A DNA stretch of 64,000 nucleotides from Amoebidium appalachense (lineage: Eukaryota; Protista; Ichthyosporea). A program made the position numbers and the translations under genes. The notes under the pieces were generated by a model. That model saw only the letters and a program-made list of their open reading frames with translations, was not told the DNA's origin and did not search any database. Location: the NCBI GenBank assembly GCA_963693365.1, contig CAVNZM010000005.1, positions 1,674,001-1,738,000 on the forward strand, read 5' to 3'. The first letter of the stretch is position 1. Each line of letters opens with the position of its first letter. Shown here piece after piece: positions 177 to 63,857 of this stretch.

Positions 177-9737
<9,561 letters not shown>

Positions 9738-15259: not shown

Positions 15260-15754
15260 TTAGTAATTGGTGTACACACCGCGGACACCGTCAATTGCGC
15301 ACACAAGCAAAGTGATGACACCAAACAGCCACGTAAGGCTCCGCCAAGGCTGGGCGGCATTTGCATATGCGATAGTGTGTGCAATGCGGAGGAAGGTGTA
15401 GACGGACGTGCAGATGATATGAAGGACCGCAACGCCGTTGCCGAAGAGGGCCGCCCACAGAACGATAAGACCGAATGGAATGTTTTCAAGGTCGTTGCCG
15501 ACAATGTGAAGCCATCTCTGTGCGTCTTCCTCTGCCCGAGTGTCTACTTCAACGGCGGTATCTTTGCCACCACTTTTCTCTGTGTCATTCGCGCCGCCGT
15601 CAACATAATCCTCAGGAACACGGTGACCTGGGGCGACCTTTGTGTAGTTTGCTTGAATGAGGGTAGTTGCGACAAACTTGAGCCAAAGGATGATTGTGCA
15701 GGTCAGAAGCGCCTGGAGAGCGCGGGGATCAACGGTGATGACTTGAGCAGCCAT
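15260..15754 (-). CDS. MAPEG family membrane protein (microsomal glutathione S-transferase/PGES-like), intronless, 164 aa
   Basis: ATG at 15754 (MAAQVITV...). Four hydrophobic helices and motifs R-x-PED, QRWLHIVGNDLENIPFGL, RIAHTIAY, QPWRS typical of MGST1-type MAPEG proteins. Confidence 0.9.
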   Translation of the reverse strand: MAAQVITVDPRALQALLTCTIILWLKFVATTLIQANYTKVAPGHRVPEDYVDGGANDTEKSGGKDTAVEVDTRAEEDAQRWLHIVGNDLENIPFGLIVLWAALFGNGVAVLHIICTSVYTFLRIAHTIAYANAAQPWRSLTWLFGVITLLVCAIDGVRGVYTNY

Positions 15755-15799
15755 TTTGTGGAGAGCCTCGTTTAGAGAGAGACTTAGCGTTTGCAAGTT

Positions 15800-16320: not shown

Positions 16321-26735
<10,415 letters not shown>

Positions 26736-29995: not shown

Positions 29996-31526
29996 GGGGG
30001 GGAGAGAGAGGGGGCGAGGAAGGGGGGGGGGGGGGGGGGGAGAGGGGGGGGGGCTGGTGCGCGCAGGAGGGGAGGGGGAGGGGGGGGAGAGAGAGGAAGG
30101 GGAAGGAAAGAGACACACACACAGAGAGAAAGAGGAAGGGAGGGAGGTAGGTAGGTAGGGAGTGAGGGAGAGAGCGGGGGAGAGAGAAAGAGAGGGAGAA
30201 AGAAGAGAGGGGGGGGGGGCAGGCAGAGAGGGAGAGAGCTCTCTCGGAGCTAGGACCGGGAGGAAAGAGAGGGGGGTAGGGGGAGGTAAAGAATCTGAGA
30301 AAAAACCGTTGGGAAAAAGTAGAGCAATAGGATGTTTTGTTTGTTGTCTTGTGTTTGCCGGAGAGAGGGGAGGGAGCGAATGATGAGAGGGTTTGATGGG
30401 ATGGGTGGGGGTTTGCAGGGGGTGCTGGTGATAGAGGTATGTATGCACAGCGTGGCAAACCTGTGATTAACTTTATGTTCCCTCCATGGGGAGGGGAGGG
30501 GGGGGGGGGGGGGGGGGGGGAGAGAAAGAGAGAGGGGTGTACCGGGAGGAGAGAAGAGGGTGGGTGGGGAATGCTAAGAATGGGAGAGACGGGACGGGTC
30601 TTGGGGTGTATAAGTACAAGGAGAAGGGTGAGAAGGAGGCGGCTCTGGGGACTGGGGAGAAAAAGGGAATGGAGGGGGGGGAGAGGGAGGGAAGGAAGGG
30701 ACTGTAGGGGGGGGGGGGGAAGGGGGGAGGGGGCAAGGGAACAATGCACTAAGCATACCTCCGCACACACGTCCTCCTCGGTGCACGTAGCCAACATCAG
30801 CCCAGCCTGCACGGCGGCAGGATAATACAGTGCAGCACGGGCCCTGGTTTCCTGCGTGTACCTGCTGCAGTCTCGCAGCGCGGACAGTGTGTGAGCAACG
30901 GCAACGAGGGCTTGTCTTCGCTCCAGTAGCAGGCCGTCCCTAGCAACACCAATAAGACGGGGTATCCCAGGGAGGAGCCTCTCCGGATATCTCTCGGCCG
31001 CCAACATTAGCACACGCGTTGCGTAAAATCCGACGAAGTCTAACCTCCAAGCCAGCATCTCAAAAAGCGCAGGTACCATGCCAGCGTTTACACAATCTCT
31101 CCACAGATCATCCTTATCAGGACACTCCACGGTCAACATAAGCGTCATGACACTCCACGGTCAACATAAGCGTCATGTTCGCAAGTGCAGTCTGCACGTG
31201 GCAATTGAGTATTTGCGTAAAAGGTCGGAAAGCCCTCGCAGGGCCTCGGTGCGTTGTGTGGGGCATCCTAGAACCGCGGCATCGACCCACATGTCCCCAA
31301 AGGTTGAGCGGACGCACGCGGTGCACTCATCCTCGTCATCATCCCCAAGGATTTTTTGGCTCGCTACCTGTTGCGGGTTTATTACTCCATGATTTTCGTA
31401 GGACTTTAGCATGGGGGGGGTTATTCCAAGCTCCTGTCTCCATTTTGTGACGTGTGTTTTAAGGGTGGCTTGGGATGTGAAGAGAGCGCGTGACGCGGCA
31501 GCGTCAAAGCTGCTCTGCCCAAGCAT
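28892..31526 (-). pseudogene. Disrupted gene for a helical (ARM-like) protein with a C-terminal MYND zinc finger
   Basis: Coding-like blocks 31526-~31198, 31148-30759 (donor GTATGC at 30758) and ~29808-28892. The MYND is split across two frames: CSSC...KLLVC / ACKKVRYCTADCQLK / WKAKHRHEC. Lesions: in-frame TAG at 29336-29338, frameshift near 31198, 28-bp tandem duplication 31121-31176, two indels at ~28936 and ~28985. Confidence 0.75.
31121..31176 (+). repeat. Perfect 28-bp tandem duplication inside the MYND gene exon
   Basis: GACACTCCACGGTCAACATAAGCGTCAT at 31121-31148 and 31149-31176. Confidence 0.97.
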
Positions 31527-34294: not shown

Positions 34295-34700
34295 GGGGGG
34301 GGGGGGGGGGGAGGGGGGGGGGGGGCAGTGATAAGGAGGGAGATCATGAGTAGTGAGGACGCCGGTGGTGGGGAAGGGGGAGTGGAAAGGGGCACGGAGA
34401 AGGGGAGGGGAAAGGGAGGAGGGGAGGGATGAGGGAGGGAAGAGTCTCGGAGAGGTTTCAAGCTGTGACACTGACTGGGGTTTTTTCAGGGAGGGAGTAT
34501 GGCCGTGGTGATGCTCGCTACATCACCTCGGATGGGTTCACCGTTATCATGGAGGGGTAGGTGCACATCCGGTGTGTGTGTGTGTGTGTGTATTATTTTT
34601 GGGCCTGTCGCTCACTTATGTGTGGTGGGGATAAAGGATCCGTCCGGTAGAGCGGAGCTTCACCCCGTTGTCTGCCCCCCCCCCCCCCCCCCCCCCCCCC

Positions 34701-34733
<33 letters not shown>

Positions 34734-36055
34734 ACCCCACCTGTCTGTCTTCCACCTCGTCTCCTTCCCCATCCCCCTCATGTACGGCAGGCCCACTCTG
34801 TCCTCATGTTACATGGCCATGTTAAAGCTTTTTTAGGCAATTTATGATCACATTTTGAGGCTTTTTTTGACTCTCCCCCCCCCCCCCCCCCCCCTCCTCC
34901 GCCTCGGGGGCCACTCGCCCTTTAAAAAACACATATGCATACTCACACACCACACACCCTAATGCTCTCCCTGCCCCCCCCCCCCCCCCCCCCCCCCCTC
35001 CCTCGCCCGTGCACTCGCCCTTAAAAAAGCATATATACCCCCCCCCCCCCCACACACACACACACATATAAACACATTTTTCGTTAAGACTAGCTTCCCC
35101 CCCCCCTCCCCCCGCCCGCCTGCCCCTCTACTCTCCCTTACCCCTGGGGGTGCGCATCCACACACACATCCTTACACCTGTAGATCCACAAACACATGCA
35201 CACGTGTCAGTTGCGCCCCAATCAGCCAGCCCCCCACTGCATCCCTCCCCCCCAAACCCCCCCCCCTCTTCCCCCACCCCATCCCTGGACCCTTGACCTA
35301 CTGTCGTTTCTAAAGGCCTTCGGGACTTAATTCTTTTCAGCTGGTGTAGTATGTTAGCCAGGGAAGTATCGACTTAGGTAGCGACGGGGGAGCTTCCTAG
35401 AAGCCCCGTCTCCTGAGTTCCTATCTATATTTTTCTTGCTTCTGCTTACTGCTGCAACTTTACCCCCGGCCTTTCCCACTGCCCTTGCCTGCATAAGCAA
35501 CCCTGCTCGTCTCTGATCAAGACGGGTGACCTACCCATGTTCAAGTGAAACAGTATCTGAGTTGGGTTTCGTCAACGAAGTGAATAGGTCGAAACTCGGG
35601 TACTGTGGGTGACGTGGGCCCCCCCTGAGGATGGGCTCTGCTTATTATGCATACTCTTTATGTATGGTTTGCATTCTGCATCGTGTTATCCGTTTGTTCT
35701 TGTGTACTTCGTACTTTTTGACGCATTCAAACCCCCCCCCCCCCCCCCCCCCCCCCCTTCTCCATACACCCACACCCACCTACCCACACACCCACCTCTG
35801 TTGCCGGTTTCAAACCATGCTCATCCCATCCACACCATCATGCATGGTCACATCCCCCAACCAGTCTGCCTCTCTCTCCCCATGTGCCACCGCATATGCC
35901 CCTATTTCCTGACCCACCCACCCACAGGATCACGGCGTTCTTTGATGGCCCCGTGGCCCTCCTTGTTGCTGTGGCCATCTCCAGGCGCTCCCACTTCCGC
36001 TATCCCTTCCAGCTCATGGTCTCCATCTGCCAGGTCTGTACACTACCCCCCCCCC

Positions 36056-39347: not shown

Positions 39348-49972
<10,625 letters not shown>

Positions 49973-52748: not shown

Positions 52749-63857
<11,109 letters not shown>

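What the first reader, a model, noticed from the sequence alone, without database searches (positions are those of the whole stretch)
35290..35758. Dispersed intronic element: always host-sense, nested 5' truncations, 3' end fused to poly(C)
Seen: five related copies in 64 kb (18725-18802, 23467-23665, 35587-35732, 43655-43801 on minus, degenerate 58016-58153) in introns of four unrelated genes. All five lie in the host gene's sense orientation, including the minus-strand lipase. Four share the 3' terminus (..GTACTTCGTACTTTTTGACGCATTCAAAC or a variant) followed by a C-run and differ in 5' extent. An internal C-run has expanded into long poly(C) in copies B and E. Established: a shared 3' end with variable 5' truncation is the footprint of target-primed retrotransposition (LINE/SINE/Penelope), normally with A-rich tails. 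Inference: this may be a retroelement with a poly(C) tail, or one that targets or seeds C-tracts, which could help explain the intronic poly(C) load; alternatively an intron-hosted ncRNA or splicing element. Five of five in one orientation is only suggestive on its own.
Basis: partly seen in the sequence, partly recalled or inferred. Interest (0 to 1): 0.8.

Follow-up and report, generated by a model that had tools for sequence, protein, structure and literature searches.

The report
Poly(C)-targeting retroelement fragments in introns
This stretch is one end of a very abundant repeat whose copies sit between runs of C in introns; it is likely a jumping gene that pastes itself into existing C-runs by reverse transcription, as known Penelope-like elements of green algae do, so it is likely a new family of a known kind rather than a new mechanism.

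Summary
The repeat is real. Six copies (the five reported plus one) lie in introns of four genes, all host-sense, with nested 5' starts; four share the end ..CATTCAAA followed by a C-run. Public DNA runs lay 5,810-9,543 contigs each on the longest copy, with depth 2-6 times higher toward the 3' end. Other copies extend further 5', so this 417-bp copy is itself truncated. C-runs flank copies on both sides, what follows the C-run differs between copies, no poly(A) is seen, and some copies stand head to tail. This fits insertion into existing (C)n tracts better than a poly(C) tail. The pattern is published for Chlamys Penelope-like elements: (C)n targets, 5' truncation, intronic insertions, partial tandems. 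No reverse transcriptase could be reached, so Penelope-like versus LINE-type is open. The sense bias is not significant given the introns' C-strand bias (p 0.05-0.14). The element touches only about 10 of 256 C-tracts in the window, so it does not explain the poly(C) load. No Rfam family matches. Verdict: new family of a known kind.

The parts
35315..35731 (+). Copy C: longest copy in the window (417 bp), itself 5'-truncated; ends ..GACGCATTCAAA; in an EBP (sterol isomerase family) intron, about 34557-35927
   Evidence: (20 contigs of run X1 and one of X14 go on with other letters before 35315)
35732..35757 (+). C26 run after copy C; read as the downstream half of the target tract
35243..35285 (+). 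C-rich tract upstream of copy C; read as the upstream half of the target tract; 25-30 bases between it and the family match are unassigned
   Evidence: assignment inferred
35619..35625 (+). Internal C7 run; frequent 5' junction to poly(C) in other copies, and site of the long C-tract in copies B and E
   Evidence: table 7 (82 contigs in X3 and 38 in X4 have a poly(C) consensus before 35619/35620)
35550..35606 (+). Predicted long hairpin (z -3.2, 1 of 200 shuffles; one of 8 segments folded); overlaps a sub-threshold hammerhead-like half motif
18759..18801 (+). Copy A, 43 bp, 91% to C, between a broken C-tract and C7; first intron of the SETD6-like gene
23553..23663 (+). Copy B, starts at the internal C-run, long C-tracts on both sides; SETD6-like gene intron 23464-24212
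23933..24147 (+). Copy F (not in the finding), 68% to C, no C-run after its end; same intron as B
43661..43801 (-). Copy D, 84% to C, C21 tract before and C28 after; GC-AG intron (43849-43317) of the patatin/DUF3336 lipase
57977..58142 (+). Copy E, degenerate, internal C-run replaced by a long C-tract, 3' end lost; intron of a DENN/Avl9-like gene

Best explanation
These are copies of one end of a high-copy repeat, cut off at different points on the other side and flanked by C-runs, likely the 3' ends of a retroelement, most likely Penelope-like, that inserts into existing (C)n tracts by target-primed reverse transcription. Shown: shared end, nested 5' starts, C-runs on both sides, thousands of matching contigs, depth rising toward the 3' end, a longer form upstream of 35315, some head-to-tail joints, no poly(A) after the end. 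Inferred: an endonuclease of an unseen autonomous partner nicks a (C)n/(G)n tract; its reverse transcriptase starts at a fixed point of the element RNA (at ..CATTCAAA plus about 6 C, with or without pairing to the G strand) and usually stops early; the cDNA is joined to the upstream half of the tract, often at the internal C7 run; target duplications are hidden in the C-run, whose length then drifts by slippage. Copies are intronic because the tracts are, and lean sense because C-tracts lean to the sense strand. About 0.85 that it is a (C)n-targeting retroelement of some class; about 0.55 that it is Penelope-like.
For: Window: 6 copies with nested starts, 4 of 4 intact ends at a C-run, C-rich 5' flanks in A, B, C, D (47-92% C in 60 bases). 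Reads: 9,543, 5,810 and 8,701 contigs laid in DNA runs X1, X3, X4; summed depth at 35622-35653 is 2.3, 6.2 and 5.5 times that at 35334-35365. Loose ends before 35610-35620 have poly(C)-led consensus in X3 and X4. After the end, contig depth keeps its full per-base step through about C6 in X1 and X3, and the listed loose ends behind 35738-35743 are mixed C-rich flanks, none starting with an A-run. Five distinct joints go from the terminus through a few C back to an internal start (35439, 35503, 35599, 35618, 35623; table 5c, 12 of 20 rows shown), one more. Precedent: Chlamys elements show frequent 5' truncation, partial tandems, (C)n targets, hidden target duplications and mostly no canonical hammerhead (PMC8557442 sections 9, 15); de novo Chlamys-9/N4 insertions had median length 128 bp and were all intronic on (C)n targets (bioRxiv 2022.05.23.493040). 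A Penelope-like reverse transcriptase starts inside its RNA, which would give a fixed end without poly(A) (PMC11167929).
Against: No reverse transcriptase or GIY-YIG gene was seen: none among 295 of 421 candidate frames scanned with Pfam, and the upstream part of the element could not be read. Six 12-14 base motifs found no match in the Naiad/Chlamys/Hydra consensus files (line breaks or divergence could hide one). Head-to-tail joints could equally arise from a new copy inserting in the C-run of an older one; the tool warns that joints at 80% likeness can come from repeats. No inverted joint was among the 15 of 45 shown. Copy F lacks a C-run at its end and is not C-rich upstream (33%), and E has lost its end. 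In X1 the depth gradient falls again at the 3' end (ratio 1.4). Chlamys are described from green algae, streptophytes and slime moulds; this host's lineage is not established and RPB12 leans slightly away from plants.
Confidence: 0.55

Rival explanations
1. The copies are 3' ends of a non-LTR (LINE-type) retrotransposon, or of a SINE-like passenger of one, that targets (C)n tracts. Same insertion route, different enzyme.
For: Shared 3' end, 5' truncation gradient and microsatellite targeting are also LINE traits (established knowledge, recalled). All window and read evidence fits except as noted.
Against: No A-rich or short-repeat tail other than the C-run; no AATAAA, A box or tRNA head in the 417 bp seen; head-to-tail partial copies are more typical of Penelope-like elements. 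A paper search for poly-C-targeting non-LTR elements listed 5 papers, none on this by title or abstract start (listing only).
Confidence: 0.27
2. The element carries or adds its own poly(C) tail in place of poly(A) and so seeds new C-tracts in introns.
For: Essentially all laid 3' ends continue into at least about 6 C; the internal C-run has grown into a long tract in E, so element-borne C-runs can expand.
Against: C-tracts also precede the copies, which a tail cannot explain. Only 2 of 256 C-tracts in the window are preceded by TTCAAA, 3 by TCAAA, and AAA before a tract is at the expected rate (8 seen, 7.7 expected; CAAA is 7 against 1.8, of which 2 are known copies). About 10 tracts touch a recognisable copy.
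Confidence: 0.08
3. A rolling-circle DNA element (Helitron-, Helentron- or Replitron-like) with one fixed end and one variable end, inserting in C-runs.
For: Rolling-circle elements give one conserved end, orientation-specific insertion and no target duplication (bioRxiv 2022.12.15.520654 passages); the element has predicted hairpins.
Against: The terminus is not CTRR on either strand and no terminal direct or inverted repeat was found (Helitron features recalled); truncations are spread along the element, not a fixed non-autonomous form.
Confidence: 0.05
4. An intron-hosted non-coding RNA or splicing element kept in sense orientation by function.
For: 6 of 6 copies sense and intronic; one local hairpin with z -3.2.
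Against: No Rfam match at gathering score in 64 kb; only sub-threshold hits. Whole-copy folding is not better than shuffles (z -1.3). Copies range from 43 to 417 bp. Distances to the acceptor are 65-759 bases and to the donor 48-2339. Thousands of matching contigs.
Confidence: 0.02

Closest known systems
Chlamys Penelope-like elements, (C)n-targeting families such as Chlamys-9_cRei and its non-autonomous partner Chlamys-N4_cRei (PMC8557442; bioRxiv 2022.05.23.493040)
   Same: Insertion in (C)n tracts, very short 5'-truncated copies (median 128 bp there; 43-417 bp here), intronic location, head-to-tail partial copies, no discernible target duplication, no canonical hammerhead, high copy number.
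   Different: No coding region seen here, so N-terminal GIY-YIG, CxC motif and IFD are untested; no motif match to the published consensus files; host may lie outside the green lineage (weak).
Canonical Penelope/Poseidon, Hydra and Naiad elements and non-LTR retrozymes
   Same: 5' truncation, partial tandems, microsatellite bias; a hammerhead-like half core (GAAAC..GTA) about 130 bases from the 3' end.
   Different: Their listed targets are (TA)n or AT-rich; canonical elements have a full type I hammerhead, which is not met here.
Microsatellite-targeting non-LTR retrotransposons and their SINEs (recalled, not looked up in detail)
   Same: Target-primed insertion, shared 3' end, 5' truncation, repeat tracts on both flanks.
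   Different: No poly(A) or other tail; no Pol III boxes in the part seen; I found no described (C)n-targeting LINE in one search listing.

Membership tests
Penelope-like elements (Chlamys type) | PLE-type reverse transcriptase with insertion-in-fingers domain and CxC motif | not testable with these tools
   No genome held; upstream part unreadable; collection scans empty
Penelope-like elements (Chlamys type) | N-terminal GIY-YIG endonuclease lacking CCHH | not testable with these tools
   No coding part in the window copies
Penelope-like elements (Chlamys type) | Frequent 5' truncation with a shared 3' end | tested here: met
   six nested starts; depth 2-6 times higher toward the 3' part
Penelope-like elements (Chlamys type) | Insertion bias for (C)n or (CA)n | tested here: met
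   4 of 4 intact ends at C-runs against about 2% background; C-rich 5' flanks; poly(C)-led 5' loose ends; C-run after ends. Empty alleles not seen.
Penelope-like elements (Chlamys type) | Partial tandem (pseudo-LTR) or inverted arrangement | tested here: inconclusive
   Five terminus-to-internal joints and one, each at single-locus depth; none in the window; no full-length partner seen; could be nested insertion
Penelope-like elements (canonical clades) | Canonical type I hammerhead in the pseudo-LTR | tested here: not met
   Hammerhead_1 14.2 bits against gathering 34, E 4.8; CTGANGA does not precede GAAA; stems I and II do not close. Absence is normal for Chlamys and Naiad.
Penelope-like elements | Optional 30-40 bp 'tail' extension at one end | tested here: inconclusive
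   25-30 unassigned bases lie between the upstream C-tract and 35315 in copy C; origin unknown
LINE/SINE | Poly(A) or A-rich 3' tail | tested here: not met
   The end is AAA then C-run; none of the 18 behind/before loose-end rows shown after the terminus starts with an A-run (22 of 75 rows shown)
LINE/SINE | Pol III head (tRNA-like, A and B boxes) or APE/RLE plus RT ORFs | tested here: inconclusive
   No tRNA, no A box, one isolated B-box-like word in the 417 bp seen; the 5' end is missing
LINE/SINE | Target-site duplication | tested here: inconclusive
   Only C-rich direct repeats flank copy C; a duplication inside a C-run cannot be seen
MITE or solo LTR | Two fixed ends with terminal inverted repeats or TG..CA | tested here: not met
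   5' ends vary; no inverted repeat links the element's ends
Helitron-like rolling-circle elements | 3' CTRR terminus after a short hairpin, insertion between A and T (recalled) | tested here: not met
   Terminus is CATTCAAA between C-runs
Known non-coding RNA families | Rfam match at gathering score | tested here: not met
   0 matches in 64 kb; sub-threshold only

The most novel reading that the evidence does not exclude
A (C)n-targeting Penelope-like lineage active outside the green algae and slime moulds, in a protist that may be an animal relative, with a permuted (type II order) hammerhead relic near its 3' end and a real preference for the sense strand of introns, which would tie target choice to transcription or to the strand bias of intronic C-tracts.
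Probability: 0.15. Interest if true: 0.55.

Novelty: new member of a known kind. Interest (0 to 1): 0.3.

Why it matters
If right, it adds an abundant, apparently recent repeat family (roughly one to a few thousand close copies, a rough estimate) to the short list of (C)n-targeting retroelements, and offers many insertions for asking how such elements choose homopolymer tracts, a point the Chlamys paper leaves open. If the host is outside the green lineage, it would widen the range of this targeting mode or show that it arose twice. It does not point to a poly(C)-tailing mechanism or explain why this genome's introns are full of C and G runs.

Tried and rejected
Whole-genome search: no genome is held, so copy table, orientation and empty alleles could not be done genome-wide. 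Exact-pattern scans found nothing in metagenome contigs, viral contigs or prokaryote genomes. Earlier findings: none by sequence, genome or place. Sequencing runs: no RNA holder listed; X14 and X20 are only guessed to be RNA, so their contigs are not used as evidence of expression. One X14 contig runs through C12 into a CT-rich flank, and another reaches 411 bases upstream of 35315; both may be DNA. Protein searches with two host exons returned no scored hit, and RPB12 searches were not decisive for lineage. Pfam scans covered 295 of 421 candidate frames and found no RT, endonuclease or transposase; short exons could be missed. Hammerhead: considered in type I, II and III order and rejected as canonical. 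snoRNA, SECIS and tRNA-head readings: only sub-threshold or partial words. Remnant-insertion origin of C-tracts: rejected. A possible seventh fragment at 18103-18141(+) is not significant (E 0.2-4.4) and is not counted. Paper searches for Penelope-like elements in opisthokont protists gave nothing on point (listings only); one search was seen as a listing only and not used.

Full report
Observation. Self-comparison of the window recovers copies A, B, C and D. Pairwise alignment to copy C gives A 18759-18801 (39 of 43 identical), B 23553-23663 (90 of 109), D 43661-43801 minus (118 of 141) and a sixth, older copy F 23933-24147 (138 of 202) (nhmmer E 0.0016 with no comparable hit in the reversed window). 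Copy E is weak as it stands but spans 57977-58142 at E 6e-7 when long C-tracts are collapsed, with no control hit at E<=2, so its internal C-run is indeed replaced by a long tract. The 5' starts are nested (35315, 35505, 35546, 35587, 35622, 35689 in copy-C coordinates). A, B, C and D end at 35730-35731; F stops about 6 bases short and has no C-run; E has lost its end.

Hosts and orientation. Exon frames on both sides of each copy and family hits place A, B and F in a plus-strand SETD6-like gene, C in a plus-strand EBP gene and D in a minus-strand patatin/DUF3336 lipase, and E in a plus-strand DENN/Avl9-like gene (weak). All six are sense. In these four genes C-tracts lie on the sense strand 74 times and G-tracts 47 times, so a C-targeting element gives 6 of 6 with p=0.052 and 4 of 4 genes with p=0.14; under an even split the figures are 0.016 and 0.062, one-sided. 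The bias is suggestive only. Distances to splice sites vary widely (48-2339 bases from donors, 65-759 from acceptors), against a splicing role.

Family-wide evidence. No genome is held. Twenty of 24 listed runs hold the stretch or part of it. Laying four runs on 35270-35735 at 80% likeness placed 9,543, 5,810 and 8,701 contigs in DNA runs X1, X3 and X4. Depth begins at 35315; 20 X1 contigs go on upstream with a common other sequence (agreement 0.85), so copy C is truncated and a longer form exists; one contig of X14 extends 411 bases further. Summed depth at 35622-35653 is 2.3, 6.2 and 5.5 times that at 35334-35365, and at 35670-35701 1.4, 5.0 and 4.8 times, as expected of 5' truncation, though X1 sags at the end. 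The tool warns that summed depth is no copy number; taking the per-base step of the depth ramp (about 33,000 in X1, 30,000 in X3) over the depth of eight long single pieces per run gives roughly 600-1,900 and 1,400-4,300 copies at 85% likeness. This is a rough inference; six copies in 64 kb point the same way.

Tail or target. In the window 4 of 4 intact ends meet a C>=7 run, against about 2% of positions, and the 60 bases before A, B, C and D are 47, 92, 52 and 70% C. In the reads, loose ends before 35619-35620 have a poly(C) consensus (82 contigs in X3, 38 in X4) and those before 35610 are led by C-runs in X3 and X4 (24 of 1,105 rows shown). After the terminus the depth keeps its full step through about C6 in X1 and X3, then falls fast in X1 and slowly in X3 (chemistry or strain may explain the difference). 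Loose ends behind C7-C12 are mixed C-rich sequences of low agreement (0.41-0.58), none A-led (22 of 75 rows shown). One related end in a 2,040-base contig has no C-run after it. C-runs on both sides, with different flanks beyond, fit insertion into existing tracts. Of 256 C-tracts in the window only 2 follow TTCAAA, and AAA precedes a tract at the expected rate, so the element does not account for the poly(C) load.

Tandems. Table 5c (12 of 20 rows shown) has five distinct joints from the terminus through a few C back to internal positions 35439, 35503, 35599, 35618 and 35623, two more through variant termini, and one search has one. Each is at single-locus depth. They resemble pseudo-LTR partial tandems but could be insertions into an older copy's C-run.

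RNA features. Rfam finds nothing at gathering score. A Hammerhead_1 half match at 35528-35601 scores 14.2 against 34. Whole-copy folding is ordinary (z -1.3 and 0.4); one hairpin at 35550-35606 reaches z -3.2 among 8 segments. The two hammerhead core words occur in type II order (GAAAC at 35591, GTA, CTGAGGA at 35625) in C and D; a strict pattern drawn after seeing the sequence occurs in 7 of 5,000 shuffles and a loose one in 185, but stem I does not close and stem II pairs at only 5-6 of 8 positions, and a narrow Rfam scan gave no hammerhead. I treat this as a possible relic. There is no tRNA, A box, AATAAA or long ORF.

Mechanism. Shown: the anatomy above. Inferred: nicking of a (C)n/(G)n tract by an unseen partner, reverse transcription from a fixed point near the RNA's 3' region, early stop, joining to the upstream half of the tract (often at the internal C7), later slippage of the runs. 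Whether priming uses C:G pairing is open; the one Penelope-like enzyme studied starts internally at a site not homologous to the cut DNA (PMC11167929, passages).

Comparison with known systems. PMC8557442 (passages; sections 9, 10, 15; supplement parts 1-2 of 59) describes Chlamys elements with frequent 5' truncation, partial tandems, (C)n or (CA)n targets, hidden target duplications, non-autonomous partners sharing 3' ends, and mostly no canonical hammerhead. bioRxiv 2022.05.23.493040 (passages; supplements not seen) reports de novo Chlamys-9/N4 insertions of median 128 bp, all intronic, on (C)n targets. This is the same footprint. Six motifs of the element are absent from that paper's consensus files, so it is not evidently one of those families. 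The Replitron preprint (passages) and a retrozyme preprint (abstract only) were read as rivals. Membership in Penelope-like elements is not shown, because the defining proteins could not be reached; it works like Chlamys.

Lineage. RPB12 from the window scores 69 bits against chains I take from their names to be animal, 65 against plant and 47-61 against fungal chains (organism assignment recalled), and the Atlas lists plant and chordate clusters alike. This is a weak lean, not an assignment. Searches for Penelope-like elements in opisthokont protists gave no paper on point (listings only), which does not show absence from print.

Verdict. A real, abundant, 5'-truncated repeat family in intronic C-tracts, most likely a (C)n-targeting retroelement of the Chlamys-like kind. 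New member of a known kind; interest 0.3.

Noticed in passing
window 35591-35631 (+) and the same part of copy D: Both hammerhead core words occur in type II order (7 of 5,000 shuffles for a pattern drawn after the fact), but the stems do not close.
   Followed up: partly
record 10 of run X14 (also in X20): A 2,040-base contig carries a 34-base match to the terminus with different sequence upstream and no C-run after it; possibly a related family or a decayed copy.
   Followed up: no
loose ends at 35483, 35527, 35610, 35655, 35694: Recurring alternative sequences show at least one diverged subfamily; one stem appears to keep its pairing with changes on both sides (read by eye, not tested).
   Followed up: partly
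whole window: 256 C- or G-tracts with a core of 7 or more; strand bias differs by gene (28:9, 12:3, 15:12, 19:23 sense C:G), and some introns are G-rich throughout while neighbours are C-rich.
   Followed up: partly
window 43849 (-): The intron holding copy D has a GC donor; the reading frame runs cleanly across it.
   Followed up: yes
window 31121-31177: A 28-base direct duplication inside the likely first exon of the minus-strand MYND-finger gene; it would shift the frame.
   Followed up: no
window 15263-15772 (-): Intronless MAPEG-family gene (Pfam E 1e-17) with no scored relative in the word-indexed protein search.
   Followed up: partly
window 18103-18141 (+): Possible further decayed fragment of the element, sense strand, not significant.
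   Followed up: yes
window 54764-54802 and 55006-55042: Local duplication of about 39 bases (92%) in an intron of the DENN/Avl9-like gene.
   Followed up: no
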